A stretch of 64,000 nucleotides of DNA from a virus (IMGVR_UViG_3300037400_001691:1-64000); one strand, 5' to 3'; counted from the first letter of the stretch, positions 1 through 63,187 are shown. Numbers and translations: made by a program. The notes: generated from the sequence alone by a model not told the origin.

Positions 1-102
1 GATTTAAAAGAATATATAAAAACTTTAAAATAATGGAAAAGAAAGTTTTTGAAATTTTCGGAAAAGTATTAATCTCAAATAAGCCAAAAGTATTTTTCAC
101 AA

Positions 103-447
103 TTGAAAGGTTCTATTATATTAGTTAGAGGTAATCACGATGAAATTCCTCTTGGTACATATGAATTTGCAAATAGTCTCGGTGCTAGATCTTTTGAAGT
201 ATATGATCAACTTATGTTTAATGTTGATGGTGTTGGAATGTTTGCATCACATTATCCAGCAACAGTATTTCCAGGTCTGTATCAAGTGTTTGGACATCTT
301 CATACATTAAAGGATGATACATCTTTCTTTATTAAAGGAAAGACAAGTGACGTACTTAAACCAACACAATATGACGTTGGTGTAGACCAAAATGATTTTC
401 GACCAATTTCATTTTGGGAACTTTGCAATATTTTTAAACAAAGATAA
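103..447 (+). CDS. metallophosphoesterase (calcineurin-like), C-terminal portion only; N-terminal motifs absent (window edge or frameshift)
   Basis: Translation contains motif III GNHDE and the GHLH motif. It has no ATG, and the ORF opens right after an in-frame TAA at 79-81. Confidence 0.45.
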   Translation: MKGSIILVRGNHDEIPLGTYEFANSLGARSFEVYDQLMFNVDGVGMFASHYPATVFPGLYQVFGHLHTLKDDTSFFIKGKTSDVLKPTQYDVGVDQNDFRPISFWELCNIFKQR

Positions 448-448
448 A

Positions 449-2146
449 ATGAAAAAACTCGAATCTCTTTATCCAACAAAGGCTCCTTCTACCAAAGATA
501 TGAACATCTTTGAGAAGGAGCTTTTTAAGAAGTCAGTACAAACTACTTCTGGTAATGGTAGTGTTAAGTATTCTATCAGCGGTAATGTCTTCTTAGATGA
601 CTATGCTGCAATTTCAAATTATCGTGAACCTAGAGAGTTAGACGATATTTTCTGTACTATGCAGAAACTTTGTAACGAGAATGTTCTTATTGCTCTTCGA
701 CTTACAGCATTTATAAGAATGATTACTCGTGCTCCATTCTTCAAAGATCAAACTCTTGGTGTTCATCGTGGTCAGGGTCTAAAGCATGAATACATTGGAA
801 GAATGTATTTCTTTGCTAAGAATTATCCAAAGATTTTCAAGCGTAACCTTGATGTATTTATCGCGATAGGTTCTTGGAATGATTTGTTTGAAATTCTCAG
901 AACAGATCTTTACTACAATGGTAAGAAGAGAAAGTCAAATTTCTTATTCAAAACTATTATTGATTATATCATTGCAAAAACATATGATAAGAATCAAGTA
1001 GAGTTGATTAAGAAGTATCTTCCACAAATTAAGCCTGCATCTAAGTGCTCAACTATTCGAAATCAGGCAAATAGTATTATCGCTAAGATAATTGCAACAC
1101 GTCTATTCCCTAGTGAGGATAAGAAGACAAGTTATGCAAGTTATCGTAGGTTTAAGAGTTCTGGTACAGCTCATATTTGGGAGCAAAAGATTTCTCAAGG
1201 TAAGTTCAATGAACTTGATTTTTCTCTCATTGCTGGTCGTGCACTTTCAAAACTCATAAACTCTAAGTTCCTAAAGAATCATGATCTTGAGGATGCTTAT
1301 TATGAGTGGATTGCTAAGCAGCCTGTAGCTAAGTTCACAGGATATCCATTTGAATTGTTTGCACCTTTTAATGAAGTGTACTTACAATACAATTATCTGC
1401 AAAACAGTAAGAATTTTAAACCTTATCAAATTGAAACATTAAATAAGCAATTTGAAGGTCTTATTGAAACTGCAAAGAAGGATATGAATCGTGAAACTTC
1501 ATTCATATGTTGTATTGATACTTCTGGTTCAATGACAGTACAAGCTAATGGTTTGAAAGTTTCTTCACTTACTGTTGCTCGTTCAATGGCTCTTTATTTT
1601 AGTAAACTCCTTATAGGTAAGTTTGCTAATACCTTCCTAGAGTTTGATAGACAGTGTAATTTCAATGTTTGGCAAGGACAAACTGCATATGAAAATTGGG
1701 TACAAACTCCAATCTCTGGATGGTGTAGAGATACTAATTTCATGAGTGTTGCAAACAAGTTTGTTGAACTCAAGCAGAAAGGATATGATGAATCTGAGTT
1801 TCCAACAGGAATAATTTGTATTTCAGATGGTGAATTTAATAGATATTCACATGATAAATCTGTATTTGAATCATTCTTGAATGCTCTTCGTCCTTGGTTC
1901 TCAAAAGAATTTGTTGATAATTTCAAACTTGTTCTTTGGGATTGTCCTAATGGTTGTTACGGTGAAGGAGTTAGACCTAAGTTCGAAAGTCTTGCTGATC
2001 GTCCAAACTTTTATTATATGTCTGGACTTGATCCTGCTGGAATTGCTTTCCTAACAGGTACTAAGTATTCACCTTCTATTCCTAAGACAGCTGAAGAACT
2101 CTTTGAAGCTGCTCTTGATCAAGAACTAATCAAAGCAATTAAGTAA
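449..2146 (+). CDS. vWA-domain protein, Ro60/TROVE-like (Rsr-like) candidate
   Basis: The protein is about 565 aa. A MIDAS-type motif (CC)IDTSGSM at about aa 360 is followed by vWA-like sequence, and size and domain order match Ro60 (toroid plus C-terminal vWA). The probable start is ATG 449, in frame directly after the upstream stop; the ORF track's 392 start overlaps the previous gene. Confidence 0.45.
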   Translation: MKKLESLYPTKAPSTKDMNIFEKELFKKSVQTTSGNGSVKYSISGNVFLDDYAAISNYREPRELDDIFCTMQKLCNENVLIALRLTAFIRMITRAPFFKDQTLGVHRGQGLKHEYIGRMYFFAKNYPKIFKRNLDVFIAIGSWNDLFEILRTDLYYNGKKRKSNFLFKTIIDYIIAKTYDKNQVELIKKYLPQIKPASKCSTIRNQANSIIAKIIATRLFPSEDKKTSYASYRRFKSSGTAHIWEQKISQGKFNELDFSLIAGRALSKLINSKFLKNHDLEDAYYEWIAKQPVAKFTGYPFELFAPFNEVYLQYNYLQNSKNFKPYQIETLNKQFEGLIETAKKDMNRETSFICCIDTSGSMTVQANGLKVSSLTVARSMALYFSKLLIGKFANTFLEFDRQCNFNVWQGQTAYENWVQTPISGWCRDTNFMSVANKFVELKQKGYDESEFPTGIICISDGEFNRYSHDKSVFESFLNALRPWFSKEFVDNFKLVLWDCPNGCYGEGVRPKFESLADRPNFYYMSGLDPAGIAFLTGTKYSPSIPKTAEELFEAALDQELIKAIK

Positions 2147-2149
2147 ATT

Positions 2150-2419
2150 ATGATAACAGCAGAAGAAGCAAAGAAAGCTTCAAATGAAGCTTTAGAAAAA
2201 AGAGAAAAACAAGAATTTGATGACATTCTTAACAAGTTCAAAGTAGAAGAAACAGTAAATAGTGCTATAAATTCAGGTCTTTATAGAGCTTATTTACAGG
2301 GTGTTAGCAATAAAGAGTTGGAAATTCTACGTAAATATCTCATGAACAAAGGTTTTCTTGTTGATAGGTCGCTTTCAACAAACGATGTTTACATAGATTG
2401 GAGCACTAGCAAAAAATAA
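2150..2419 (+). CDS. hypothetical protein (89 aa)
   Basis: ORF with ATG start 4 nt after the upstream stop. No recognisable motif. Confidence 0.55.
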   Translation: MITAEEAKKASNEALEKREKQEFDDILNKFKVEETVNSAINSGLYRAYLQGVSNKELEILRKYLMNKGFLVDRSLSTNDVYIDWSTSKK

Positions 2420-2465
2420 AAAAATTTTAAAAATTTTTTGAAATTTGAAAATTCTATAATATATT

Positions 2466-2502
2466 TGTACACATTCGCTTCAAAAAAAGTAAATGTGTAC
2501 AA
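2466..2502. promoter_or_regulatory. perfect 11-bp inverted repeat TTGTACACATT/AATGTGTACAA with 15-nt spacer, just downstream of a TATAAT hexamer (2453-2458)
   Basis: Read directly in the sequence. It lies immediately 5' of the tRNA-like gene at 2558. Confidence 0.3.
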
Positions 2503-2557
2503 AATATTGGGTTCATAGTTCAATGGTTAGAACAATTGATTAAAATTTATCATATTA

Positions 2558-2643
2558 GGGTGGTTGGCCGAGTGGACGATGGCAATAAACTGTTAATCTA
2601 TCTAGTGAAAGCTACACCGTGGGTTCGAATCCCTCACTGCCCG
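2558..2643 (+). tRNA. atypical class-II-like tRNA (long variable arm, acceptor GGGTGGT/ACTGCCC with 2 G-U pairs); anticodon loop CTGTTAA reads GUU
   Basis: Hand fold: Ser-like D-arm GCC-GAGTGGACGAT-GGC, anticodon stem ATAAA/TCTAT (one A-C mismatch), variable hairpin TAG-TGAAAG-CTA, T-arm GTGGG-TTCGAAT-CCCTC. Confidence 0.4.
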
Positions 2644-2648
2644 CTAAT

Positions 2649-2963
2649 ATGGCATAGAAAGAAATTCGTTATTGTGAAAAACATGGAAATACTGAGTTTG
2701 CTTTGTATAAAACTGGAAAAGATAGCACTAGATGGAGATGTCTAAAGTGCTAGACTGAAGCAACTTAGAAAAGAAGAGATAAAGTGAAATATATGGCAGT
2801 TGTTTATAAAGGAGGTAAATGTCAATGTTGTGGATACAATAAATATATAGGAGCTTTAGAATTTCACCATGTAGATCCAGAACAAAAAGATTTTGGAGTA
2901 TCATCATAGGGATATACCCATTCTTGGGATAAAGCTAAGAAAGATTTCGATGATAAATTTTAA
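2649..2963 (+). CDS. HNH homing endonuclease (C-terminally truncated) with four in-frame TAG codons
   Basis: Frame-0 translation reads ...YCEKHGNTEF...RWRCLKC*TEAT*KRRD...YKGGKCQCCGYNKYIGALEFHHVDPEQKDFGVSS*GYTHSWDKAKKDF. This is a classic Zn-finger plus HNH motif. The TAGs are at 2655, 2751, 2766 and 2907. There is no TAA or TGA inside and no frameshift. Confidence 0.6.
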
Positions 2964-3016
2964 CCTATTAATATCAGTTCGATTCTGTTTGGGCCCGCTA
3001 CTATAAAAATAATATC

Positions 3017-3769
3017 ATGAATACACTCGTTCATCATTTTGCAGGAATGAAATTAAGAGCACAACAATTTGTAAAATATTTTTACGATAATGTTGTTAAT
3101 GCTAAAATAAATTCAGATAATTTGACAGATTTTAATAATAATGTTACTTTAGTTTACGGATCAACAAATAATTATCCGTTTTCTCAAACATTACTTAAAT
3201 ATATAACTGAAAATAATATAAATTCTATAAATATATATGAGAATATTAATCAAGCTTTAAATATTGAGAAAATATCATATTTTAAAAAAGTTCTTGACGA
3301 AAAGTATGATTTATTAAACGATTATATATTATTTATAGATGCTGGAGATACAGTATTAAATATAGATATTTCTTTTAATGAAATTCTTGAAAGATTTAAA
3401 AGTTATAATTGTAATGTTTTATTTAATAAAGATATTACTGATTATCCTTTTAGTTTTAAAAAATATTTTAATCCGAAATCTCCAAGTTATATCAAAGAAT
3501 ATTTTGAAACTCCAAATGTTGAACAATTAAGTGATATAAAAAATGGACATTTTATAAATTCTGGTGTTTATTTTGGTAAAAAAGAAGACATTAAAGAATT
3601 AATAGATGTTTGTTTTAAAATTATAATAACTGATAACAATCCAAGATATTATTCTGATCAATTCATTTTTAAAAAGGCTGCAAAGTTTATTAATGAAAAA
3701 TATAATAAACATTTTGTAGAAGTTGATTATGAGAATAAATTATTTTCTTGTGTAAATTTTAATAAATGA
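3017..3769 (+). CDS. hypothetical protein, extremely AT-rich (possible nucleotide-sugar transferase-like, DAGD motif)
   Basis: 250-aa ORF with very low GC relative to its surroundings. No confident motif. Confidence 0.5.
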   Translation: MNTLVHHFAGMKLRAQQFVKYFYDNVVNAKINSDNLTDFNNNVTLVYGSTNNYPFSQTLLKYITENNINSINIYENINQALNIEKISYFKKVLDEKYDLLNDYILFIDAGDTVLNIDISFNEILERFKSYNCNVLFNKDITDYPFSFKKYFNPKSPSYIKEYFETPNVEQLSDIKNGHFINSGVYFGKKEDIKELIDVCFKIIITDNNPRYYSDQFIFKKAAKFINEKYNKHFVEVDYENKLFSCVNFNK

Positions 3770-4035
3770 AAAAATTACTAATTTTACTAATAATGATGCT
3801 TAGTATTGGTATATTCGGTAATGTAAATCATCAAGCAACTTATTCTGGAAAACACGTTGAAATATATAAAAAATCTAATAACAAGTTAATTTTTGAAACC
3901 GATTCAGCTAAAAAAGCTTATACCAATAAAGACACAATCATTGTAAAAATGATTAACGGAAAGATTAAAAAATATTATCCTGAAAGTGAATATATATTTA
4001 AGTATTCAATTTCAAGTGTAAGATATTACGAATGA
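3766..4035 (+). CDS. small secreted/lipoprotein-like protein
   Basis: N-terminal hydrophobic signal MKKLLILLIMMLSIGIFG. Start overlaps the previous stop (ATGA). Confidence 0.5.
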   Translation: MKKLLILLIMMLSIGIFGNVNHQATYSGKHVEIYKKSNNKLIFETDSAKKAYTNKDTIIVKMINGKIKKYYPESEYIFKYSISSVRYYE

Positions 4036-4055
4036 CATAGATACAACATATAAAA

Positions 4056-4144
4056 GGAATACATACAGCAAATGTTTTTGGTTAATAAATAATACTGATT
4101 ATATTGTTTTAAGTGGTTCAAATCCATTACTTTTTTGTATTCCG
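4056..4144 (+). ncRNA. IR-flanked structured element (GGAATACA...TGTATTCC) with ACAGCAA motif and a T-arm-like hairpin; degenerate Y-RNA/tRNA-like unit U1
   Basis: The 8-bp terminal inverted repeat encloses 73 nt that contain AGTGG-TTCAAAT-CCATT. No acceptor pairing was found. Confidence 0.35.
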
Positions 4145-4149
4145 AATTT

Positions 4150-4222
4150 GCATCGTTGGTGTTAGTGATTAGCATATTGGACTTCCACTCCAAAGGCGAG
4201 AGTTTGAATCTCTTACGATGCT
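4150..4222 (+). tRNA. tRNA-Gly(UCC)
   Basis: Acceptor GCATCGT/ACGATGC 7/7. Anticodon stem TTGGA/TCCAA with loop CTTCCAC. T-arm GAGAG-TTTGAAT-CTCTT. Confidence 0.65.
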
Positions 4223-4281
4223 CTCGAATCCCCATTAGTCCCTGAATTTTTAATTCAAACTAGTGGGTATTGTTATCTTAA

Positions 4282-4357
4282 GGAGGTATAGCGTAGGTGG
4301 TTGTTGCGCGTGGGTCTGAAAAACCCAAGGCTTGTGGTTCAACTCCCAATGCCTCCA
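4282..4357 (+). tRNA. tRNA-Phe(GAA)
   Basis: Acceptor GGAGGTA/TGCCTCC. D-arm GCGT...GCGC. Anticodon stem TGGGT/ACCCA with loop CTGAAAA. The T-stem is imperfect. Confidence 0.55.
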
Positions 4358-4380
4358 CTAATTTTTAAAATTATATTATT

Positions 4381-4563
4381 ATGAGTTTCGATAAAGCAAT
4401 AGAATCTGGTAAAGAACATCGTAAGCAATTTAAAGGAGCAAAGTCTGTTTCTTATAGTTGTAGAAATCATGGTGAATGTCCGTGGTGTAGAAGTAACAGA
4501 TTGTATGGTAATAGAAAAAGAGAAATAAGATCTTTAATGGAAATTAGAGATTTTCTGTCATAG
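4381..4563 (+). CDS. small Cys-rich zinc-ribbon protein (60 aa)
   Basis: Contains SCRNHGECPWCRSN. The ORF ends with TAG immediately followed by TAA. Confidence 0.5.
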   Translation: MSFDKAIESGKEHRKQFKGAKSVSYSCRNHGECPWCRSNRLYGNRKREIRSLMEIRDFLS

Positions 4564-4574
4564 TAAAGAATAAA

Positions 4575-4753
4575 GAAAGCGTACAGCAAATTTTTATATT
4601 TTACCATTAAATTTATAATCCGAAATGTTGTGCAATTCATATAAAAGACTGATTGAATTGTGTTTTATACTCGTATAGAAGTTAAGCTATACTAAGGTGT
4701 GAGTCACTGATTTAGAAGAATAAAAGTTAAATTAAACTTATATTTCGCTTTCT
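4575..4753 (+). ncRNA. IR-flanked structured element U2 (AGAAAGCG...CGCTTTCT) with ACAGCAAA motif, 179 nt, several internal hairpins
   Basis: The terminal 8-bp inverted repeat is preceded by the same leader motif as U1 and U3-U6. Internal hairpins include CAATTCA/TGAATTG and GTATAG/CTATAC. Confidence 0.35.
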
Positions 4754-4759
4754 GTAAAC

Positions 4760-4830
4760 AGGTCCTTAGTTTAACGGTAAAACATTAGTCTCCAAAACTA
4801 AAGTTATTGGTTCGATTCCATTAGGGTCTG
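4760..4830 (+). tRNA. tRNA-Trp(CCA)
   Basis: Acceptor AGGTCCT/AGGGTCT with 2 G-U pairs. D-arm GTTT-AACGGTA-AAAC. Anticodon stem TTAGT/ACTAA with loop CTCCAAA. T-loop TTCGATT. Confidence 0.6.
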
Positions 4831-5136
4831 CTAAAAAATGTTAAACTATTTTGTTTTCATAATAAAGATATGTATATTTGAAGTGTTAATTAGGAACACA
4901 TACAACAAAATTAATTCATTACTCTGCGTTTTAGAGTTCATTGTGTTCCGTTATTTTAATTATTGATTATGGCTTATAAAAAAGATACAAGACAAAGAGT
5001 AAAAGTACTCAATTGTGACATTCCTTATCTTAAAGGAATGGTTGGTCGAGTAGAAAAAGTAAATGGGGATATTTACAATGTAATGGTAGGACCGATTGTT
5101 ATAGCATTACATAAAAGTAAAATTCAAATATTAAAT

Positions 5137-5208
5137 TGAGGTATAGTATAACGGTTAGTACAGTAAACTGATAATTTACAAACCTAAGTTCAACTCTTAG
5201 TACTTCAA
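5137..5208 (+). tRNA. tRNA-Ile(GAU)
   Basis: Acceptor TGAGGTA/TACTTCA. D-arm GTAT-AACGGTTA-GTAC. Anticodon stem GTAAA/TTTAC with loop CTGATAA. T-arm CTAAG-TTCAACT-CTTAG. Confidence 0.6.
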
Positions 5209-5216
5209 CTAATATC

Positions 5217-5285
5217 GCGGATGCAGTGTGATGGTCGCATTTAAGGCTCATAACCTTAAGGAGTAGTTCGATTCTAACATTCGCA
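5217..5285 (+). tRNA. tRNA-Met-like (CAU) with truncated/imperfect T-stem (possible pseudo-tRNA)
   Basis: Acceptor GCGGATG/CATTCGC. Anticodon stem TAAGG/CCTTA with loop CTCATAA. The T-loop TTCGATT has only a 3-bp stem. Confidence 0.4.
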
Positions 5286-5306
5286 ACTTATCTTCATGTT
5301 TTTTAA

Positions 5307-5421
5307 AGGAAACTTCAGCAAACAATTCTCCCACAGAATGTCGTTAGTTCGAATCTAACTCCCTCTGATAGAGGGATAGCTCAATTGGTTCAGAGCGTCT
5401 GTTTTATAAAAAATGTTTCCT
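5307..5421 (+). ncRNA. permuted tRNA-like element U3 (Y-RNA/YrlA-like): 3' tRNA half then 5' tRNA half, enclosed by IR AGGAAAC/GTTTCCT
   Basis: At 5333-5367 lie ACAGA-ATGTC-GTTAG-TTCGAAT-CTAAC-TCCCTCT-G. After the linker AT, 5370-5402 hold AGAGGGA-TA-GCTC-AATTGGTTCA-GAGC-G-TCTGT. The acceptor pairs 7/7 and the anticodon stem 5/5 between the halves. The leader contains CAGCAAA. Confidence 0.6.
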
Positions 5422-5427
5422 GTTTAA

Positions 5428-5545
5428 AGAAAACTAACAGCAATATTTAAATCCGTATCCTGGTGGTAACATGGGTTCGATTCCCTTCTCTACTGTAACA
5501 GGTAGTGTCGTCTAGTGGTAGGACGCCTTTTTTGAATAGTTTTCT
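5428..5545 (+). ncRNA. permuted tRNA-like element U4 (Y-RNA/YrlA-like), IR AGAAAACTA/TAGTTTTCT
   Basis: Leader ACAGCAA, then T-arm ATGGG-TTCGATT-CCCTT, then an acceptor-like hairpin CTCTACTG-TAA-CAGGTAG, then a Glu-like D-arm TCGTCTAGTGGTAGGAC. The inverted-repeat arms show compensatory changes relative to U5 and U6. Confidence 0.55.
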
Positions 5546-5552
5546 GTAATAT

Positions 5553-5636
5553 CGCGGTATAGTCTAATGGTAAGATGCGAGGCTCATAACCTTGAGACAG
5601 TAAATGCTTGTGTGGGTTCGATTCCCACTACCGCAA
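5553..5636 (+). tRNA. atypical tRNA, anticodon CAU, C1-A72 mismatch, 17-nt variable region
   Basis: Acceptor CGCGGTA/TACCGCA. D-arm GTCT-AATGGTA-AGAT. Anticodon stem CGAGG/CCTTG with loop CTCATAA. T-arm GTGGG-TTCGATT-CCCAC. Confidence 0.45.
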
Positions 5637-5725
5637 GGACACATAATCAAAACCTCCACGTGGTGTGTCTGGGTAATGCTAATTTGATTATAATTTGTTT
5701 AATTTAATTTATTTAGAATTGAATC

Positions 5726-6376
5726 ATGGCTTATATTTATTGTATTACAAATTTAATTAATGGAAAATAGTATGTAGGTAAAACTACATATTCTATTACA
5801 AAAAGATTTAAAGAACATTGCAGAGATTGTTCAAAAGAATGTGAAGAAAAAAGACCTTTATATGCTGCTATGAATAAATACGGTATAGAAAATTTTGTTG
5901 CAAAAGAACTTATAGAATGTGAAATAGATGAACTTAGTTCTTATGAAATTATGTTTATAGAAAAACTTCAAACATATGGAAAAAATGGATATAATGCAAC
6001 AAAAGGAGGTGATGGTTCTATATTATTTGATTATAATGAAATAGTTAATTTATATAAACAAGGAAAATCTATGACAGAAGTAGCTAGTATAATACATTGT
6101 TGTATTGATACTGTTTCTAAAGTAGTTCATTTATATAATTTACCTATAAATAAAATTATATCAGGTAGTTGTAAACAACCAAAAATTGTAATACAATTAA
6201 ATAAAGAAACAAAAGAAGAAATACAAATTTTTAATTCAGTTGCAGACGCTTCTCATTGGTTAGTTGATAATGGATATGCTAAAACATATAACGGAGGTGT
6301 TAGACAAAAAATTTGTAATTGTTGTAATGGAAAATCAAAATCAGCTTATAATTTTAAATGGAAATATAAGGAATAA
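5726..6376 (+). CDS. GIY-YIG homing endonuclease (free-standing) with one in-frame TAG
   Basis: Translation MAYIYCITNLINGK*YVGKTTYSITKRFKEHCRD...AAMNKYGIENF... carries the GIY-YIG motif with a TAG at 5768-5770. The ORF is otherwise intact through to TAA at 6374-6376. Confidence 0.7.
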
Positions 6377-6394
6377 TTCCCACTACCGCAATAT

Positions 6395-6588: not shown

Positions 6589-6659
6589 GAGTGCTTGTCC
6601 GAGCGGTTAGGTAACGCTCTGTAAAAGCGAATACATTGGTTCAAATCCAATAGCACTCT
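6589..6659 (+). tRNA. tRNA-Tyr(GUA), short class-I form
   Basis: Acceptor GAGTGCT/AGCACTC 7/7. Anticodon stem CGCT/AGCG with loop CTGTAAA. T-arm ATTGG-TTCAAAT-CCAAT. Confidence 0.5.
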
Positions 6660-6805
6660 CAACCTCAGCTGACAAGAGCTAGATCTTGTTGACTTTTAAA
6701 TTCCGGGGCAACATGAAACGGAATAGGTTGGCTTACCTTAAAAAAGTACACGCATCAAAGATGTAAGAGATCCTACTCAGTGAGGTTTTAGAGTAGGATT
6801 TACTT

Positions 6806-12394: not shown

Positions 12395-12954
12395 AATTTG
12401 GGGGTATTTGGATTTGATTGCTAAGAGAAGCAAAGAAATCACGCAAAGGCAGTTGGAAAGACAACAAATAAAATTTAAACGGAAATAACACAGTTACATT
12501 CCGTATCGCTGCTTAATTGAATTAGATTAAGTACGATACCCGGGAAACACAGGATACTTACCGAGGAACAGAAATAGTATTCATCGCTGGCATCGGCAGT
12601 AATTAAACGAGCAAAAGTTTTATTAGTTTTCACAAAACTAATTGGTGGAGCTAACATTCAGTTAGCCTAAAGAAGAAAACTTTTAAAAATTGAAAAGCGT
12701 GTACAAATTTCGATGATATTTTAGTAAGACGAGGGTTTAATAGTTGGACCAGCTATAAAGTGATTTATAGTTAAAAACATCGGATGAATTCAGGGAACGC
12801 TAAAAAATAAAGCTCAAGATAAGCTTTATTTCATGCTAATCCTGAGCTAAACATAGAGTACACTCTATGAAAGTGCAACGACTATTGGAGAACTACAGTG
12901 TTCTTAATTACCAACTTGAGCGTCCGACATCTCATTAAGAGATGATGATATAGT

Positions 12955-24805: not shown

Positions 24806-25961
24806 TTCCAAAATAAAATTTTTGTTTGAAATTTTGAAACTTGTTAAATTAGTTATATTATTAATTTAACAGTTAAAATTATGGATATAGAAAAATTGGC
24901 ATTTGAATTTCAAACAACTAGTATTTCTCTTACTAAATTAGCAGAAAGAGAACATACAGCAAGACAAACTCTTGCAAAAAAATTTAAAGAATTAGGTATT
25001 GAGATAATTAATAAACAAAATAAAACTAAATTTAATGAACATATCTTTGATTCTATAGATACAGAGAAAAAAGCATACTGGTTAGGTTTTATTTTTGCTG
25101 ATGGAAGTATTAGAGAACAAATTGAAGGTAAAAAAGTTCCTTATACTTTTGAATTAAGTTTAAAAGGAGATGATATAGAACATCTTAAAAAATTTAATTC
25201 ATTTATGGAATATCAAGGAGATAATGTTAAATTAGGAAAAAGTAAATGCAAAAATAAAGAGTTTTCTAGATGTAGATGGACTATTACAAATAAACATTTA
25301 TGGACTATTCTTAACAATTTAGGTTGCACATCTAATAAATCTTTAACATTACAATTTCCTAATGAATCAATATTTAGTTCAAAAGATTTAATTCCACACT
25401 TTATTAAAGGTTATTTTGATGGTGATGGATGTTTTACACGTCATGTATATACACATATTGTTAGTCCTGTTATTTCTATATTAGGAACTCCAGAATTTTT
25501 AGATAAAATTGACGAATATTCTAATATAGAATCTATAAGACGACATGACAAAAGACATTCTGAAAAAACTTATATTTTAGAATTTAATAAAGAAAATGGA
25601 ATTAAATTTATTAATTATATTTATTCTAATTGTAATATATATTTAGATAGGAAATATAAATTATATAATTTTTTTAAAAACGGAAGCCGTTCTGTAGAGG
25701 AATTTACAGAATTACAATCGGGCAATATCGGGGAAAAGCTGAAGCTTGAGTCGAGAGACTATATGTATGAAAATCCCGAGATAAACTTAGAAACTAAAGA
25801 ATCTGAGTCATCGTACAGCGTAGGAGGTGAAACTGTATAACAGACTATAATCCTTCCAAGAGTGTCCGATACCCCAACTGAAATAAGTGGGTAAAAAGGT
25901 ACGCGGGGCTTACTTGTAATAAGTAAGAAATACGAATAAAAAATCGTATGATAACAATCCG
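24806..25961 (+). mobile_element. group I intron in helicase gene, carrying LAGLIDADG endonuclease ORF
   Basis: The exon ends in U and the intron ends in G. The in-frame read-through hits a stop. The host Walker A motif is split precisely. The 3' core shares blocks with the dut intron. Confidence 0.65.
24881..25840 (+). CDS. LAGLIDADG homing endonuclease (intron-encoded)
   Basis: Two LAGLIDADG motifs: YWLGFIFADGSI and KGYFDGDGCF. Confidence 0.75.
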   Translation: MDIEKLAFEFQTTSISLTKLAEREHTARQTLAKKFKELGIEIINKQNKTKFNEHIFDSIDTEKKAYWLGFIFADGSIREQIEGKKVPYTFELSLKGDDIEHLKKFNSFMEYQGDNVKLGKSKCKNKEFSRCRWTITNKHLWTILNNLGCTSNKSLTLQFPNESIFSSKDLIPHFIKGYFDGDGCFTRHVYTHIVSPVISILGTPEFLDKIDEYSNIESIRRHDKRHSEKTYILEFNKENGIKFINYIYSNCNIYLDRKYKLYNFFKNGSRSVEEFTELQSGNIGEKLKLESRDYMYENPEINLETKESESSYSVGGETV

Positions 25962-29106: not shown

Positions 29107-30496
29107 CTTTTAAGAAATTTTAACATTTAATTTTACCATTATTAAAATAAAATTCGTATATTTGTATTATTAATTATTAACTATTAACTATTAAAATAAT
29201 ACAAACATGAAACGAGTTTATAAAATTTTAACTAAATTACACAAAACTGCTGGAATTTATATTATTTCCTGCACAAAAACAGATAAAGTATATATTGGAG
29301 AAAGTTTAAATGTTAGTGGGAGAATTTTAAAACATTTTACTAATCTTAGAAAGAATATGCATCATAATCCTATACTTCAAGCTATATTTAATAAGTATGG
29401 AGAAGAAACAATGATAGTAGATGTTTTAGAATGGATTAATTCTGATGATATACATCAACTAGATTTTCTTTTAAGAAAGAAAGAAGTTGAATATCAAAAA
29501 AAGTTTGAACATTGTATCAATTTTGATAAAAATGGATACGCATGGAAATTAAATGCAACAGAAGAACAAAAAGAAGCAAATCGTAAACAATTAGACTCTA
29601 TTAGAGAAGCAGCGATGAATGCTTGCAAAACTCCTTTAGTTATATATAATATTAAAACTAAAGAAAAAATAGAAGTAGATAGTTTACAAGAAGCGGAAAA
29701 TTATATTGAGCAAAAACATATTTATCGAAATATAAAAGATAAAGTGTATTTACCATATAATAATTATGTAGCATTTCTTCCAGAAGAGTATAATCCTACA
29801 CTAATTTTAAACACATCTTGTATGTCTAATGCTAGTATATCTGAAGTATATAAGTTATATAATTTAAAAACTGGGGAAGCTTTAAGTTTTCCAAGTAAAT
29901 CTCAATTTGCCATATATTTAACAGGTAAAAGGAATGATAAATTATATGATAGATATACTACATTTATAGATGATAATTTTTTAACTGCAATGCAAATTAC
30001 TTCTATAGAAGATTTTTGGAATGCTCCTTTTGTATATAATAGAAATTCTAGAAGTATAAAAACTTGTATTCTAAAAGATTATTATCAGGCATTACTGAAT
30101 TACAAGACTGATATTGAATTATCTAATATTTTAGGTTGTGAAAGAAGATTAATTCCAGTTTTATTTAAAAATAAATCCTTAGCAGACAGGATTAATGAAA
30201 TTACAGAAACCGCAGGCCACTTTAACAAATCTGTTTAAAATTGGGAAGCTTTAATTCTAATTATTGTGAAATAATTATAAGGTAATCAATTACGAACTAT
30301 ATGAATAGCATAAAAGTAATATAGACGTTTAACGACTAGTAGATAAATAGCTAAATTGATTCTACCACGAAATACAGACATTTTATAAATTGTATGTGAA
30401 TATAAGATATAAAGTGAAGAGATAGTCTAAACTGCATATTAAAGAATATAAATTGCAGAGTTTAGGATAAAGAGCCTAGAGTTAATTACAAAAATG
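29107..30496 (+). mobile_element. group I intron in ATPase gene, carrying GIY-YIG endonuclease ORF
   Basis: Exon 1 ends in U (GGT) and the intron ends in G, the G of the ATG at 30494-6. The P-loop is split exactly. Confidence 0.6.
29207..30238 (+). CDS. GIY-YIG homing endonuclease (intron-encoded)
   Basis: Contains GIYIISCTKTDKVYIGESLNVSGRILKHF...NKYGEE. Confidence 0.75.
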   Translation: MKRVYKILTKLHKTAGIYIISCTKTDKVYIGESLNVSGRILKHFTNLRKNMHHNPILQAIFNKYGEETMIVDVLEWINSDDIHQLDFLLRKKEVEYQKKFEHCINFDKNGYAWKLNATEEQKEANRKQLDSIREAAMNACKTPLVIYNIKTKEKIEVDSLQEAENYIEQKHIYRNIKDKVYLPYNNYVAFLPEEYNPTLILNTSCMSNASISEVYKLYNLKTGEALSFPSKSQFAIYLTGKRNDKLYDRYTTFIDDNFLTAMQITSIEDFWNAPFVYNRNSRSIKTCILKDYYQALLNYKTDIELSNILGCERRLIPVLFKNKSLADRINEITETAGHFNKSV

Positions 30497-39719: not shown

Positions 39720-40889
39720 ATGGAAATAAAAGTAATTAATAAATGCGGAATTTTAGAAGATTTTGATCCACAGCGTATTGCTGTAGCAATTAGAAAAAGT
39801 GCAAGTAGAGTATTTGTGGATCTCACCGACGAAGATTGTGAAAAAGTATCAGATTGGGTATATTCTCATTTAACTGAGAACATTCCAGTTAAAACTCTTC
39901 ATAATTTAGTCGAATGTGCATTAGATGAATGTAATTTTAAAAGAGTAGCAGAATCTTATCGTGCTTTCCGAAATTATAAATCTGACATTAAAGAAATTTG
40001 GGAAGCAGTACAATTAAAAGAAATTGAATTAGATTCTCAGCCAGATCATTCTAATGCTAATTGTAATTCACAGTTAGTATCTACTAAAGGTATTCTTACT
40101 TATGGAGAATTTCTTAAAGAATCTTATATGAGATTCTTTTTAACTCCAGAAGAAAGAAAAGCTGTTAAGGAAGGGTTTATTTATCCTCATGATATGAAGG
40201 ATAGATATAGAACATATAATTGTTGTCTATTAAATGTCGGTCGTATTATGAAAGGTGGATTTACCCTTGAAAATATGCCTTATACAGAACCTGGAAGTGT
40301 AGCTGCTGCGATAGCAGTTGCATCTGATATTATAAGTGTTACTGCTGGAAATCAATATGGTGGTCTTACTTGGCCTCAAGTTGATGAGGATTTATCTTAT
40401 TACTGTCAGAAATCATATAATTTCTATATTAAAGAATATAGTCATATTATAGAAGATGCTGGCTGTACTGTAGATCCTCGTAAAGCAGATGCTTATGCTT
40501 ATAGAAAAGTAAAACGTGAAATTCAACAAGGTTATCAAGGAATTGAACATACCTTTAATAGTGTATCATCTTGTAGAGGTGATTTTCCATTCATTTCATT
40601 TAGTTTTGGTAACGGAACTGATAGATGGTCTAAACTTGTAAGTACAACTATCTTAGAAACAAGAATGGGTGGTCAAGGAAAACCAGGTGGTAAAACTCCT
40701 GTATTATTCCCTAAACTTATCTTTACTTATAGAGATGAAATTCACGGAGAAGGTGGTATTTCCGAAGATTTATTTGACTTAGCTGCTAAGTGTTCTAAAG
40801 ATACTATGTATCCTGATTTCTTAAGTCTTGATGCTGGTTATGTAGGACAAATGTATAAGAAAACAGGTAAGATTATCACTATGATGGGT
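39720..40889 (+). CDS. nrdD: anaerobic ribonucleoside-triphosphate reductase NrdD, exon 1
   Basis: N-terminal ATP-cone. The exon ends ...KIITMMG, immediately before the conserved active-site CRA(C/F)LSP. Confidence 0.75.
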
Positions 40890-41732
40890 AAGCGTAAACT
40901 ATAGCTCATCTAAAACCTTTTGAACCGTTATTCGCGGGTGTCTAGAAATAGGCTAACGGTTAGGTCCTATAAATAATAGGATGAGACCGTGCTAAATTTA
41001 TTATATATGTTTTTAAAAATAATGTAATATGTGGATATATAAAATAGTAAATGATATTAATAATAAAATTTATATCGGGCAAAGTAAATATCCAATTGAG
41101 CAACGTTTTTAGAGACATAAAAATGATTGTTTATGATTAGATACACATCTTGCTCGTGCATTTAAAAAATATGGAATAGAGCATTTCAAAATAGAAATAG
41201 TAGAAGAAGGAATTGAAGATCCAAATTTATTAACAGAAAGGGAATCATATTGGATTAAACATTATGATTCAATAAAGAATGGATATAATGAAACTGATGC
41301 TGCTGTACGTTCTGGAGGAAATACTTATCAAAGTAAAACAGAAGAAGAAATGCTTATAATCAAAGATAAAATTAGATAGACTAAATTAGGAGGAAAAAAT
41401 CCTCATGCAAGAGCTGTTAAAATGATAAATATACAAACTGGAGAAGAAAAAATATTTGAAGCTATATCAGTTTGTGTAAAAGAATTAAATTTAGATCGAC
41501 ACGATCATGTATCTAAAAGATGTAGAGGAATTATTAAATCTCCTTATAAAGGGATTTATAAATTTGAATATGTAAATAATTAATAAACATATATAATAAA
41601 GAAGTGTATCGACTATCCCTGATGAATGTAAGGGAGTAGGCTTAGAGATGAATACTAAGTCGAAGCGGAAGGCTTTAAGTAATTACTTAAAGAAGATATA
41701 GTCAGTTCTTTTGGTAACAAAAGATTAAAACG
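40890..41732 (+). mobile_element. group I intron in nrdD with degenerate GIY-YIG ORF
   Basis: Exon 1 ends in U and the intron ends in G. The joined exons give ITMMG-CRACLSPDY...GVISLNLPMFYQK, matching T4 NrdD SPMGCRAFLSPWY...AISLHLPMIYQK. Confidence 0.7.
41040..41583 (+). pseudogene. GIY-YIG endonuclease (I-TevI-like) with in-frame TAG x2 and TGA x1
   Basis: Translation MWIYKIVNDINNKIYIGQS...QRF*RHKNDCL*LDTHLARAFKKYGIEHF...YWIKHYDSIKNGYN...KIR*TKLGG. Confidence 0.55.
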
Positions 41733-42716
41733 TGTAGAGCGTGTTTATCTCCTGATTATAATGAACAAGGTGAACTTCTTATTAATAGATGTAATATGGG
41801 TGTTATATCTCTTAACTTACCTATGTTCTATCAGAAAGCTAAGTTAGAAAACAAAACCTTCTATGAAGTATTTGATTATTACTTTGAATTAGCAAGACAA
41901 ATTAATCTTAGAACTATTGAATATTTAAAACGCAAACTTAAAGGAGCTAGTAGTCCACTTGCATTTATGGAAGGTGGATTTGACGATGGTTATCTTGGAC
42001 CAAATGATTCTGTAGCTCCTGTTCTTAAACATTCTACTATAAGTTTTGGTTATGGTGGACTTAGTGAACTACAAACTTTATATAATAAGGATCATAATAT
42101 TGAAACTCATTATTTTGAAGATTGTGATTTTGCTAAAGATGTTATGACTTACTTTAACGATAAAGTAGAAGAAATTAAGAAGGAAGACAATGTATTATAT
42201 GCGATATATGGTACTCCAGGTGAATCTTGGCTTCCAAAAGCTTGTGAACAATTTATTGCTAAATATGGAGAAGTTGACGGTGTAACCGATAAAGGTTTCT
42301 TCTCTAATTCATTCCATATTAATGTTGACGAAGACGTAACTCCAATTGAAAAAATTGATTTTGAAAATCAATTCTTCCCACTTTCTAAAGGTGGTTCAAT
42401 CTGTCACGTTAAGATTCCATCTATTGCTGATGAAATGATGCCAGGAGTTAAAGCAATAATTCGTCATGCTATGAAAATTGGTAACTATCAATCTGTAAAT
42501 CACGCATCTAATAGATGTACTGATTGTGGACACCATTGGATTGGTGATGATAGTATGCCTTATGAAGAAAATTATAGATGTCCAGTTTGTGGAAGTATGA
42601 ATACCGTAGGAACACGTAGAATGAATGGATATCTTGGATATTCTAAAACTATTCTAGGTGTAAATAAGTTCAATGATGGTAAGATTAAAGAATTTAAATT
42701 ACGTAAAAATCTATAA
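41733..42716 (+). CDS. nrdD: NrdD exon 2 (glycyl-radical domain, C-terminal Zn ribbon)
   Basis: CTDCGHHW...CPVCGS zinc ribbon and RRMNGYLGYS glycyl-radical motif. Confidence 0.75.
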   Translation, partial: CRACLSPDYNEQGELLINRCNMGVISLNLPMFYQKAKLENKTFYEVFDYYFELARQINLRTIEYLKRKLKGASSPLAFMEGGFDDGYLGPNDSVAPVLKHSTISFGYGGLSELQTLYNKDHNIETHYFEDCDFAKDVMTYFNDKVEEIKKEDNVLYAIYGTPGESWLPKACEQFIAKYGEVDGVTDKGFFSNSFHINVDEDVTPIEKIDFENQFFPLSKGGSICHVKIPSIADEMMPGVKAIIRHAMKIGNYQSVNHASNRCTDCGHHWIGDDSMPYEENYRCPVCGSMNTVGTRRMNGYLGYSKTILGVNKFNDGKIKEFKLRKNL

Positions 42717-58659: not shown

Positions 58660-59140
58660 TATAAGAGAAAATAAAGATTTACTGTTAAGGTATCTGTGTA
58701 TAGCATTGCCTTATGAGGTTAAGGGTAGAGTGTATGCTGAGATTACAAATGGACAGTATGATATGAATGGGGATATGATATTTTTCGATTCTCCATTTGA
58801 CGTTATACTTGATGGTATTAATGTGTCAACCGAAGAAATTCATGTGGTTGCTATTGGTAATGAAGATACTGTTGAGTTTATAGAAATACAACAAACAGAT
58901 GGTATCCCTTATACTATAAAGGATATTAAACCCTATCTCCGTCCAATGTCAAGCATGACTGAGGAAGAAGATAAGAAATATGGTCTTTTGTGTTTTGACG
59001 TATCTTATTATGACAAAGATACCCCAAAGTGCAGTTTTAAGTTGATAAAATGGTTACTTGAAAAGCATTTTGACTTTATGAGTTTAATTCTAATGGGTCT
59101 TGCAATTGAAGTCACTGAAGAAAACAATCTTTATAAATAA
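58586..59140 (+). CDS. hypothetical protein, paralog of 62052-62468
   Basis: Shares IKPYLRPMSSMTEEE...LIKWLLEKHFDFMSLILMGLAIEVTEENNLYK with IKPYLRPLLSMTKAE...LIWLVRNHFDCFNLINQGLTIGVTKNNNPYEK in the paralog. Confidence 0.5.
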   Translation: MIMESKIHFMVLLVLNLLFVFIQNNIRENKDLLLRYLCIALPYEVKGRVYAEITNGQYDMNGDMIFFDSPFDVILDGINVSTEEIHVVAIGNEDTVEFIEIQQTDGIPYTIKDIKPYLRPMSSMTEEEDKKYGLLCFDVSYYDKDTPKCSFKLIKWLLEKHFDFMSLILMGLAIEVTEENNLYK

Positions 59141-59273
59141 TATGTCAAAAAAGATTCAAAATAAAAAAGAAAATAAATCTCAACAAATTTATTTAGGTAA
59201 TGGTCTTGCAACTATACTTAAAGAGGTTAAACCTTTGTTTGAAACAAGAGCAGATTATACTTAGCCATGTCCT

Positions 59274-59462
59274 TTGAAAAATCTTGTAGATGATGACATT
59301 ACAGCAGTATATATGTATAATGATGAGCTGTATGCAATTACTTGTGATTTGTTCGACACACCATTTGCAGAACTTTCAAGTAATATAAGAAACCAAATAA
59401 GGGAAGAGGCTATAAAGTGGTTGAAAGAACAACCTCAAACTCAAGGTAAATTTAGAGAATAA
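59274..59462 (+). CDS. hypothetical protein (62 aa)
   Basis: ORF. Confidence 0.45.
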   Translation: MKNLVDDDITAVYMYNDELYAITCDLFDTPFAELSSNIRNQIREEAIKWLKEQPQTQGKFRE

Positions 59463-62641: not shown

Positions 62642-63187
62642 ATGTCAAAGAAACGTTTTAAATTGGTGGGTTTGTTACTTGGTAGTTTCGACCCACCACA
62701 TATTGGGCACATAGATGCCGCATTACAATCAATCAATCTCTTGGATGAAGTTTGATTTGTTCCAGCTTGGCAAAATCCATAGAAAGAAAAATCATCTGAT
62801 TATTGGGATCGTTATCTAATGTTAAATACATTAGTAAAGAATTATAATTTAGATGATTCTTATAGGTTTTCTGTTAGAAATATAGAATATACAGTAAAAC
62901 CTAAATATACGTATGAATTAATTGAATATCTTGTCAAACAATATTCGGATACTCAATTTTTTATTATTGGAGGGCAAGATATAGAACAAGATATTAAAAA
63001 TTGGAAAAATACTGATTACATTTTAGAAAAATGTATATTACTTCCAATTGATAGACATAGGATTAATATTTCTTCAACAGAAATACGTGAATTAATTAAA
63101 AATCATAGTAATCCTATTCCTTATATAACTCCAGCTGTTTTAGAACTTATTAAAAACAAAAATTTATATAATGAAAATAACGAATAA
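62642..63187 (+). pseudogene. nicotinate/nicotinamide-nucleotide adenylyltransferase (NadD/NMNAT family) with 1-nt frameshift plus in-frame TGA and TAG
   Basis: Frame A reads MSKKRFKLVGLLLGSFDPP. After a 1-nt shift it reads (H)IGHIDAALQSINLLDEV*FVPAWQNP*KEKSSDYWDRY... then ...NISSTEIRELIKN...LY. The TGA sits at the conserved Trp (B. subtilis LDEIWFMPNQIPPHK). Confidence 0.55.

What the first reader, a model, noticed from the sequence alone, without database searches (positions are those of the whole stretch)
2649..6376. In-frame TAG (and one TGA) but never TAA inside otherwise intact homing-endonuclease genes: suppression/recoding versus decay
HNH gene 2649-2963 has four in-frame TAGs. GIY-YIG 5726-6376 has one TAG inside the GIY-YIG motif (NGK*YVG). 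The intron-borne GIY-YIG 41040-41583 has two TAGs and one TGA. None of these has a frameshift. In a roughly 70% AT genome a random nonsense mutation should mostly give TAA, yet 8 of 8 in-frame stops in these HE genes are TAG or TGA. Several ordinary ORFs end in TAG followed directly by TAA (4561-4566, 14819-14824) or by a second TAG and a TAA (21365-21385). This is the pattern expected if TAG termination is leaky. A phage-encoded or host amber suppressor could gate HE expression. No tRNA with a CUA or UCA anticodon was found by eye in this window. The alternative is pseudogenisation by G>A and C>T transitions, as clearly happened in the NMNAT gene at 62642, which has a frameshift as well.
Basis: partly seen in the sequence, partly recalled or inferred. 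Interest (0 to 1): 0.65.

Follow-up and report, generated by a model that had tools for sequence, protein, structure and literature searches.

The report
Amber codons read as glutamine
The seven TAG "stops" inside three selfish nuclease genes of this phage are inherited glutamine codons of a phage lineage that reassigns TAG. This is a known kind of code switch, so they are not decay, although two of the three gene copies are separately broken.

Summary
The core observation holds. HNH 2649-2963 has 4 in-frame TAG, GIY-YIG 5726-6376 has 1, and the nrdD-intron GIY-YIG (really 41029-41586) has 2 TAG plus 1 TGA. None has an in-frame TAA.

All 7 TAGs sit at Gln positions. Diverged but full-length homologues keep TAG at the same codons or swap it with CAA/CAG. 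dN/dS downstream of the TAGs is 0.08-0.15 in the informative pairs. In these genes Gln is written CAA 12, CAG 0, TAG 7.

Relatives with the same early gene order are open only with TAG as sense in their late half, where TAG makes up 57-60% of Gln codons. The window is therefore most likely the standard-code early arm of a TAG-to-Gln (code 15) phage, with three of its five Pfam-identified homing-endonuclease genes written in the late code.

True decay also exists:
- The TGA is a private CGA>TGA change.
- The HNH copy lost 117 nt, including its catalytic core.
- NMNAT has TGG>TGA and TGG>TAG, and no frameshift.

The "TAG then TAA" pattern is no more than chance. No suppressor tRNA or release factor was found. 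Stop-codon gating of an intron endonuclease was already proposed for Agate phages, so this is a new member of a known kind.

The parts
2649..2963 (+). HNH homing-endonuclease gene remnant. It has in-frame TAG at 2655, 2751, 2766 and 2907, all at Gln positions. It lacks 117 nt (39 aa) that encode the C-x-x-C-H-x-x-x-H catalytic core.
   Evidence: L001 and L083 (96% nt identity) have the same four TAGs in a full-length 143-aa ORF with CANCHREIH.
2535..2959 (+). Inserted cassette made of an 87-nt long-variable-arm tRNA with a GUU anticodon (2557-2644) plus the HNH gene. It sits in the anticodon stem-loop of a resident tRNA-Asn, whose halves remain at 2507-2534 and 2960-3000.
   Evidence: L081 (96.7% identical) lacks the cassette and has an intact 73-nt tRNA-Asn(GUU) at that place.
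5726..6376 (+). Free-standing GIY-YIG homing-endonuclease gene of 216 codons, the same length as its homologues. Its single TAG at 5768 is codon 15, inside the GIY-YIG motif.
   Evidence: Homologues at 89% and 83% nt identity keep this TAG and have further TAGs where the window has Gln. dN/dS is 0.13-0.15.
5622..6391 (+). Limits of the GIY-YIG cassette insertion at the 3' end of tRNA-Met. The 15-bp direct repeat TTCCCACTACCGCAA occurs at 5622-5636 and 6377-6391.
   Evidence: L083 (96-97% identical) has the empty site with one copy of the repeat.
41029..41586 (+). GIY-YIG homing-endonuclease gene inside the intervening sequence of nrdD. TAG 41110 (codon 28) and TAG 41377 (codon 117) are at Gln positions. 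TGA 41134 (codon 36) is a private CGA>TGA nonsense change.
   Evidence: Eight contigs, L064-L071 (97.8% nt identity), have TAG, CGA, TAG at these codons.
39720..42716 (+). Split anaerobic ribonucleotide reductase gene nrdD. Exon 1 is about 39720-40889 and exon 2 about 41733-42716, with an intervening sequence of about 843 nt. The boundaries are inferred.
   Evidence: Pfam NRDD positions 2-265 match exon 1 and 279-560 match exon 2; the junction reads ...MMG | CRACLSP. Rfam's group I model does not score here.
62642..63187 (+). NMNAT-type (CTP_transf_like) gene with two private Trp-codon transitions, TGG>TGA at 62753 and TGG>TAG at 62780. This is real decay and there is no frameshift.
   Evidence: L075-L078 have TGG at both codons and an intact gene of 181-183 aa.
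59094..59462 (+). Small ORF with TGG>TAG at 59262. This is a non-endonuclease in-frame TAG that is not at a Gln position.
   Evidence: L077 (88.5% aa identity) has TGG.
24881..25840 (+). LAGLIDADG homing-endonuclease gene with no in-frame TAG (Gln: CAA 7, CAG 0). It lies between helicase-related ORFs 23803-24702 and 25983-27131.
   Evidence: The flanking ORFs are adjacent in L005.
29207..30238 (+). GIY-YIG + NUMOD1 homing-endonuclease gene with no in-frame TAG (Gln: CAA 9, CAG 1). It lies between the DnaB-like helicase gene and ORF 30494-30943.
   Evidence: The flanking genes are adjacent in L005 and L046.

Best explanation
The window is most likely the early arm of a phage of about 170-190 kb and 29% G+C. 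This arm holds the tRNA cluster and the replication and nucleotide-metabolism genes, and it reads correctly in the standard code. The phage belongs to a lineage that decodes TAG as glutamine (genetic code 15 type).

Three of the five Pfam-identified homing-endonuclease genes in the window are written in that late code. Their seven TAGs are inherited Gln sense codons, not nonsense mutations.

Shown here:
- TAG corresponds to Gln at every one of the seven sites.
- The TAGs are conserved, or exchanged with CAA/CAG, across diverged homologues.
- The ORFs downstream of the TAGs are under purifying selection.
- The endonuclease genes have late-type Gln codon usage.
- Nearly identical genomes differ by presence or absence of the cassettes.
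- Relatives have late genes that are heavily TAG-recoded.

Inferred, not shown:
- In an infected cell these endonucleases would be translated beyond codon 3, 15 or 28 only once an amber decoder is active. That decoder is not identified and presumably lies outside the window.
- Their synthesis would thus be confined to the late, recoded phase. Whether this is an adaptive gate or simply a consequence of being late-expressed genes is open.

Independent decay sits on top of this in this particular genome. The HNH copy lost its catalytic core through a 117-nt deletion. The intron GIY-YIG gene acquired CGA>TGA. Only GIY-YIG 5726-6376 looks functional.
For: 1. All 4 HNH TAGs align with Gln. L001 and L083 (96% nt identity) carry the same 4 TAGs in a full-length ORF with an intact HNH motif. 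L002 carries TAGs at other codons, one of them at the same nearly invariant Gln.
2. The GIY-YIG 5768 TAG is kept in L072, L073 and L074. Extra TAGs there stand where the other sequences have Gln. The two TAGs of the intron GIY-YIG gene are identical in 8 contigs from 8 sequencing runs.
3. dN/dS is 0.146, 0.134 and 0.114 for the GIY-YIG 5726 family, 0.124 for HNH (L001 against L002), and 0.084 for the intron GIY-YIG gene. The window HNH against L001 gives 0.29 from only 7 differences.
4. Chance is excluded. P(>=7 of 8 TAG) is 2e-5 to 6e-4, and P(7 of 7 at Gln) is below 1e-6. Gln usage in the three endonuclease genes is CAA 12, CAG 0, TAG 7, against CAA 342 and CAG 92 in the other long ORFs.
5. 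Clade context:
- L073 tail-fibre-like genes have 7-17 TAG each and no TGA or TAA.
- MT835492.1 (29% G+C, DnaB 42% identical, same early layout) is open in code 11 over 1-60 kb and open only with TAG as sense over 60-121 kb.
- TAG makes up 57-60% of Gln codons in late genes, 1.5-3% in early genes, and 37-43% in the endonuclease genes.
- Opposite 1441 TAGs in diverged homologues, the commonest codons are CAG and CAA, together 35%. No other amino acid exceeds 9%.
6. Recent mobility in this same lineage: L083 has the full HNH and an empty GIY-YIG site, and L081 has an empty HNH-cassette site.
7. Gln-type in-frame TAG occurs in 3 of 5 endonuclease genes against 0 of 103 other ORFs (Fisher P = 5e-5).
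8. Borges et al. (bioRxiv 10.1101/2021.08.26.457843) describe the same logic for an intron endonuclease in Agate phages.
Against: - No tRNA with a CUA anticodon, and no release-factor gene, was found in the window, in about 1.3 Mb of related loci, or in the 121.6-kb relative.
- The late genes of this phage itself were never seen. The nearest long contigs could be read only 10 kb beyond the window, and that stretch is standard code.
- TAG ends 10 of 108 window ORFs, and some of these TAG terminators are conserved in relatives.
- Two endonuclease genes have no TAG.
- Two of the three TAG-bearing copies are inactivated here, so in this genome they could be relics.
Confidence: 0.8

Rival explanations
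1. Foreign-code relics. The phage itself uses the standard code throughout. The three endonuclease genes invaded from co-infecting TAG-recoded phages and are untranslatable, hence dead on arrival, in this genome.
For: - The window has no Gln-type TAG outside the endonuclease genes.
- TAG is used as a terminator.
- There is no suppressor tRNA in the window.
- Two of the three copies carry inactivating lesions.
- The 10 kb beyond the window's end in close relatives are standard code.
Against: - Every relative whose late region could be read is TAG-recoded, yet has the same standard-code early arm.
- The same endonuclease alleles persist with an open frame in genomes 96-100% identical to the window, from several samples. 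They also show insertion polymorphism there.
- Purifying selection acts on the families.
Confidence: 0.1
2. Ordinary pseudogenisation. The in-frame stops are nonsense mutations (G>A and C>T transitions) in decaying selfish genes.
For: True for some sites. These are CGA>TGA at 41134, TGG>TGA at 62753 and TGG>TAG at 62780 in NMNAT, TGG>TAG at 59262, and the 117-nt deletion in the HNH gene.
Against: For the seven endonuclease TAGs:
- All are at Gln positions.
- They are shared with homologues as diverged as 83% nt identity, whose ORFs have no other stop.
- dN/dS is about 0.1.
- The chance probability is below 1e-6.
- The window-specific substitution spectrum is unremarkable: C>T 10, G>A 6, T>C 7, A>G 3.
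Confidence: 0.03
3. Leaky termination without a code change. Host near-cognate tRNAs read TAG at low efficiency, which gives small amounts of endonuclease.
For: No dedicated decoder was found. Low-level endonuclease would suffice for homing (general knowledge).
Against: - Relatives have up to 17 TAGs per structural gene, and TAG is the majority Gln codon in late genes. That requires efficient decoding.
- Four TAGs in a 143-codon HNH gene would give negligible product by read-through.
- There is no excess of back-up stops after TAG terminators.
Confidence: 0.05

Closest known systems
Recoded group I intron endonuclease in an early gene of Agate-clade phages (Borges et al., bioRxiv 10.1101/2021.08.26.457843; read)
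   Same: - A homing-endonuclease gene in an early gene of a large gut or rumen phage carries reassigned stop codons while its surroundings are standard code.
- The proposed consequence is the same: no endonuclease until the late code switch.
- The early arm in standard code and late genes in the alternative code match.
   Different: - In that case TGA is read as Trp. Here TAG is read as Gln.
- Here two free-standing endonuclease genes in the tRNA cluster carry TAGs too, while two other endonuclease genes do not.
- Membership of the Agate clade was not tested, because no Agate sequence was available.
TAG-to-Gln (code 15) phages such as crAss-like and Lak phages (metaproteomic proof in PMC9523058, listed)
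   Same: In-frame TAG at Gln positions, concentrated in late genes. The hosts are presumed to use the standard code.
   Different: - This is a different phage. There is no megablast match in INPHARED, and the best protein hit is 40% to Leptolyngbya phage Lbo-JY46.
- Those phages usually encode a detectable tRNA(CUA). None was found here or in relatives.
T4 SegB, a GIY-YIG homing endonuclease in the T4 tRNA gene cluster (PMC2330249)
   Same: A free-standing GIY-YIG endonuclease gene lies among phage tRNA genes. Related phages differ by presence or absence of the gene.
   Different: - T4 uses the standard code, and segB has no recoded codons.
- Here the cassette duplicates the 15-nt 3' end of tRNA-Met.
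- Cleavage activity and target were not tested.
Delayed expression of T4 intron endonucleases such as I-TevI, through late promoters and occlusion of the ribosome-binding site in early transcripts (own knowledge, not checked in a paper here)
   Same: The functional outcome is the same: an intron-borne GIY-YIG endonuclease in a nucleotide-metabolism gene is kept silent early and made late.
   Different: The mechanism differs. There it is transcriptional and RNA-structural. Here it would be the meaning of a codon.

Membership tests
Stop-codon-recoded phage, TAG to Gln (genetic code 15 type) | In-frame TAG in conserved ORFs at positions where homologues have Gln | tested here: met
   7 of 7 endonuclease TAGs are at Gln positions. 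TAG and Gln (CAA/CAG) interchange among the window, L072 and L073. In the clade, CAG and CAA are the commonest codons opposite TAG.
Stop-codon-recoded phage, TAG to Gln (genetic code 15 type) | Many genes, typically late ones, fragmented in code 11 and restored when TAG is sense | tested here: inconclusive
   The window is code-11 compatible: 16,002 aa against 16,937 aa in long + strand ORFs. The feature is met in relatives MT835492.1 and L073. The late region of this phage itself could not be obtained.
Stop-codon-recoded phage, TAG to Gln (genetic code 15 type) | Phage-encoded suppressor tRNA with a CUA anticodon | tested here: not met
   None is present in the window, even with introns allowed or at lowered thresholds. 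None is present in the fetched loci or in MT835492.1. There is one weak tRNA-like candidate with a 6-nt GUCUAA loop in L083, outside the window, and Rfam does not support it. The rest of the genome is unseen.
Stop-codon-recoded phage, TAG to Gln (genetic code 15 type) | Other code-change machinery, such as release factor 2 or GlnRS | tested here: not met
   No GGQ-motif protein occurs in six-frame translations of the window and all loci held at that call. GlnRS was not searched for.
GIY-YIG homing endonuclease | GIY-YIG catalytic domain (Pfam PF01541) in a full-length ORF | tested here: met
   Homologues of both genes carry PF01541. The window ORFs have the same length as their homologues (216 and 184 aa). 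The gene at 41029 has a premature TGA.
GIY-YIG homing endonuclease | Site-specific cleavage and homing | not testable with these tools
   Only indirect evidence exists: occupied and empty sites in genomes 96-97% identical.
HNH homing endonuclease | Beta-beta-alpha-metal core with the His...Asn...His motif and zinc-binding cysteines | tested here: not met
   The window copy lacks the 39 residues that hold C-x-x-C-H-R-E-I-H. These residues are present in L001 and L083.
Group I intron with an endonuclease ORF, in nrdD | Recognisable group I catalytic core flanked by exons that restore the gene | tested here: inconclusive
   The exons match consecutive parts of Pfam NRDD, and the junction reads MMG|CRACLSP. 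Rfam Intron_gpI gives no match in 40850-41850. No uninterrupted nrdD was found among the loci.

The most novel reading that the evidence does not exclude
In this clade TAG may be decoded by something other than a canonical suppressor tRNA. No tRNA(CUA) was found in the window, in a 121.6-kb heavily TAG-recoded relative, or in about 1.3 Mb of related loci. Possible decoders include an atypical tRNA such as the 6-nt-loop GUCUAA tRNA-like gene of L083. If so, selfish endonuclease genes embedded in the standard-code early arm would use that switch as a timer.
Probability: 0.12. Interest if true: 0.7.

Novelty: new member of a known kind. Interest (0 to 1): 0.4.

Why it matters
Annotation:
- In-frame TAGs confined to mobile endonuclease genes can be the only visible sign that a phage fragment which otherwise reads in the standard code belongs to a code-15 genome.
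- Standard gene callers would label these genes pseudogenes.

Biology:
- The window adds TAG-type examples, both free-standing and intron-borne, to the idea that a mid-infection code switch silences selfish nucleases early.
- It provides natural allele series that make the idea testable. These are the empty site, the full HNH and the deleted HNH, and the CGA and TGA alleles of the intron GIY-YIG gene.

The concept itself is already published, so the surprise for a specialist is moderate.

Tried and rejected
1. Genome-wide recoding inside the window. Code 15 adds only about 6% ORF length. The two apparent read-through joins are not Gln-type: 27345 separates two genes that lie in different frames in relatives, and 59262 is TGG>TAG.
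2. Tandem back-up stops as evidence of leaky TAG. There is no enrichment.
3. Hypermutation or DNA damage as the source of the transitions. The window-specific substitution spectrum is ordinary.
4. Suppressor tRNA hunts:
- ARAGORN with introns and at low thresholds.
- A motif scan.
- The 'tRNA-Pyl' call in MT835492.1 lies in coding sequence and has poor stems.
- An exact search for the L083 candidate found nothing.
- A Gln-like tRNA(CUA) pattern found 24 IMG/VR loci, but none is related to this clade.
- Flanks of a late gene in relatives of MT835492.1 hold no tRNA(CUA).
5. Reaching this phage's late genes. Exact-protein look-ups at the window's left end gave only a 6.7-kb contig. The metagenome scan gave contigs of 9-13 kb near the left end.
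6. My first reading of 5318-5400 as a circularly permuted tRNA gene. It fits the Rfam Y RNA-like (YrlA) model instead.
7. Release factor motif search. No hits.

Full report
**1. The observation**

Translation in the stated frames confirms the following:
- The HNH gene (2649-2963) has four in-frame TAGs, at 2655, 2751, 2766 and 2907.
- The GIY-YIG gene 5726-6376 has one TAG, at 5768, inside NGK*YVG.
- Both genes end in TAA.

Its real ORF is 41029-41586, with TAG 41110, TGA 41134 and TAG 41377, ending TAA TAA. It lies between the two halves of an anaerobic ribonucleotide reductase gene, nrdD. Pfam NRDD positions 2-265 match 39720-40904 and positions 279-560 match 41796-42716.

The tally is therefore 7 TAG, 1 TGA and 0 TAA. 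I modelled single-base nonsense mutation on the codon content of these genes or of the window. TAG is then expected for 16-27% of new stops, which gives P(>=7 of 8) of 2e-5 to 6e-4. The pattern is real and not chance.

**2. What the TAGs are**

- *HNH gene.* The protein search found close, full-length homologues. All four TAG positions align with Gln. The database had translated these homologues with TAG as Gln. Their DNA shows TAG at the same four codons in L001, in a 143-codon ORF with an intact C-A-N-C-H-R-E-I-H motif. L002, on a 170.6-kb contig, has TAGs at other codons, one of them at the same nearly invariant Gln. L083, 96% identical to the window, has the same full-length, four-TAG gene.
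- *GIY-YIG 5726-6376.* Codon 15 is TAG in L072 (89% nt identity) and in L073/L074 (83%). Those genes have further TAGs where the other sequences have Gln.
- *Intron GIY-YIG gene.* Eight contigs from eight sequencing runs (L064-L071, 97.8% nt identity) have TAG at both codons. They have CGA where the window has TGA.
- *Selection.* dN/dS, counting TAG as Gln, is 0.146, 0.134 and 0.114 in the GIY-YIG 5726 family. It is 0.124 for HNH (L001 against L002) and 0.084 for the intron GIY-YIG gene. The reading frames downstream of the TAGs are therefore under purifying selection.
- *Codon usage.* In the three window genes Gln is written CAA 12, CAG 0, TAG 7. The other long ORFs use CAA 342 and CAG 92. 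If TAGs arose by mutation, the chance that all seven hit Gln codons is below 1e-6.

**3. The lineage**

The phage is not in INPHARED at the DNA level. Relatives are common in rumen-type and gut metagenomes. The habitat is my inference from sample names.
- L073, a 172-kb contig that shares several early proteins at 30-38% identity, has tail-fibre-like genes with 7-17 in-frame TAGs each and no in-frame TGA or TAA.
- GenBank MT835492.1 is 121.6 kb with 29% G+C. Its DnaB is 42% identical to the window's, and a tRNA cluster lies upstream of dnaB as in the window. It is open in code 11 over its first 60 kb, and only with TAG as sense over 60-121 kb.
- TAG makes up 57-60% of Gln codons in late genes of these relatives and 1.5-3% in early genes. 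It makes up 37% in the window's three endonuclease genes and 43% in endonuclease genes of relatives.
- As a test independent of the database's own translations, I tallied the codons opposite 1441 in-frame TAGs of MT835492.1 in diverged homologues. They are CAG 29% and CAA 6%. No other amino acid exceeds 9%.
- In L002, three of the five TAG-bearing genes inside the tRNA cluster are HNH endonuclease genes.

The window has a tRNA cluster, helicases, nrdD, nrdG-like, thyX, dUTPase and NAD genes. All are on the + strand and almost all are open in code 11. This matches the standard-code early arm of such genomes.

**4. Mobility in this same lineage**

- L080 is 100% identical to window 1-5686.
- L083 (96-97% identical) has the full-length HNH gene and lacks the 5726-6376 cassette. 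The 15-bp repeat TTCCCACTACCGCAA is present once there.
- L081 (96.7% identical) lacks 2535-2959 entirely. It has an intact ordinary 73-nt tRNA-Asn(GUU) where the window has two tRNA halves.

The TAG-bearing endonuclease cassettes have therefore moved recently among nearly identical phages. That argues they are, or recently were, expressed in cells infected by this lineage.

**5. Real decay**

Separate lesions exist in this genome:
- A 117-nt in-frame deletion between short repeats removes the HNH catalytic core.
- CGA>TGA at 41134.
- TGG>TAG at 59262 in a small ORF.

The window-specific substitution spectrum is ordinary.

**6. What does not fit, or is missing**

- No tRNA(CUA) and no release factor was found in the window, in related loci, or in MT835492.1.
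- The only candidate is a tRNA-like gene in L083, about 650 nt upstream of the window-homologous DNA. It has a perfect acceptor stem, a canonical T-loop, an encoded CCA and a 6-nt GUCUAA loop. Rfam does not support it, and it is absent from L080, the contig identical to the window.
- TAG ends 10 of 108 window ORFs. Distances to the next stop are as after TAA or TGA.
- Two other endonuclease genes have no TAG: LAGLIDADG 24881-25840 and GIY-YIG/NUMOD1 29207-30238.
- Even so, Gln-type TAG is strongly associated with endonuclease genes: 3 of 5 against 0 of 103 other ORFs (P = 5e-5).

**7. Mechanism and comparison**

Most likely (about 0.8) the seven TAGs are Gln codons of a code-15-type phage. It follows that these endonucleases can be completed only when the amber decoder is active.

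Whether this is an adaptive early-off gate, or merely the codon usage expected of late-translated genes, cannot be decided here. I put the adaptive gate at about even odds.

The same idea, for TGA read as Trp in an intron endonuclease inside an early gene of Agate phages, is in Borges et al.. TAG-to-Gln decoding has proteomic support in crAss-like phages (PMC9523058). Endonuclease genes inside phage tRNA clusters are known from T4 SegB (PMC2330249).

This is therefore a new member of a known kind. Its useful natural allele series are the empty site, the full HNH and the deleted HNH, and the CGA and TGA alleles of the intron GIY-YIG gene.

Noticed in passing
window 2507-3000 (tRNA 2557-2644); L081 2119-2191; L084 7948-8037; MT835492.1 11783-11864: The HNH cassette destroys a canonical 73-nt tRNA-Asn(GUU) by inserting into its anticodon stem-loop. 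It also brings its own replacement, an 87-nt tRNA with a Ser/Leu-like D-arm, a long variable arm, discriminator G and a GUU anticodon. Over-long 'tRNA-Asn' genes recur in relatives. Which synthetase charges it (Asn or Ser) is unknown.
   Followed up: partly
window 5306-5425 (+); motif copies at 4053, 4572, 5305 and 5426; gene 392-2146: This stretch looks like a permuted tRNA: a T-arm, a closed acceptor-like hairpin, then a D-arm. It matches Rfam YrlA (Y RNA-like tRNA mimic) over the full model at 38.8 bits, below the gathering score of 69. The motif AAAG[GA]AA-N4-7-ACAGCAA occurs only four times, all within 4053-5445, which may mark several such modules. The first gene of the window is a DUF7788/DUF2828 protein annotated as RNA-binding in other phages, and could be a Ro60-like partner (not shown). 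Y RNAs next to Ro60 in phages are known (PMC4201824).
   Followed up: partly
window 12400-13623 (exons 12400-12736 and 13603-13623; intron 12737-13602; ORF 12955-13518 on the - strand): A phage tmRNA gene is split in its T-loop by a group I intron of about 866 nt (Rfam Intron_gpI, 96 bits). The intron carries an antisense ORF with an HNH-like SLDRID...GNVQFV motif. ARAGORN calls the tmRNA (tag GGANIQLA*) only after the insert is removed. At about 1224 bp it is longer than any tmRNA gene in the recent database paper, where no intron exceeded 700 bp (PMC11915505).
   Followed up: partly
window 6589-6660 vs L083 7066-7137: The 72-nt 'tRNA-Tyr(GTA)' of the window is called tRNA-Cys(GCA) at the same place in the 97%-identical relative. 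This points to a C>T change in the anticodon, producing a Cys-type body with a Tyr anticodon.
   Followed up: no
window 62642-63187 and 59094-59462: NMNAT has TGG>TGA and TGG>TAG within ten codons, and a small ORF has TGG>TAG. Together with CGA>TGA in the intron endonuclease gene, four private transitions create stops in accessory genes of this strain.
   Followed up: yes
window 24881-25840 and 29207-30238: Two further homing-endonuclease genes, LAGLIDADG and GIY-YIG+NUMOD1, are intact in the standard code. They sit as insertions relative to L005 and L046. The LAGLIDADG gene lies between two helicase-related ORFs, and the downstream ORF starts only at ResIII model position 127.
   Followed up: partly
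window 27135-27995: ORF 27135-27347 ends in TAG and is in frame with the next gene (27348-27995). Amber read-through would therefore fuse them. In relatives the two genes are in different frames, so they are separate genes. The downstream gene probably starts at a GTG or TTG codon.
   Followed up: partly
L083 463-535: A tRNA-like gene has a 7-bp acceptor stem, a GGTTCGAGTCC T-loop, an encoded CCA and a 6-nt anticodon loop GUCUAA, with CUA in the anticodon position. It lies just upstream of the window-homologous DNA in a 96% relative. It is absent from L080, the contig identical to the window, and Rfam does not support it as a tRNA.
   Followed up: partly
L137 3491-3563, L182 7029-7101, L188 4858-4930: Phages that share a late-gene homologue with MT835492.1 carry a tRNA with an 8-nt anticodon loop. 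ARAGORN reports a four-base anticodon, 'taaa'.
   Followed up: no
window 15650-16642; L075 16306-16812: An Rnl2-type RNA ligase gene follows the tRNA cluster in the window. A PNK3P-type polynucleotide kinase/phosphatase gene lies about 6 kb beyond the window's end in close relatives. Together they would form a tRNA-repair gene set.
   Followed up: no
window 5636-5691: A weak match to an HDV-like ribozyme family (24.5 bits, E = 0.5) lies exactly at the 5' edge of the GIY-YIG cassette. It is probably chance.
   Followed up: no
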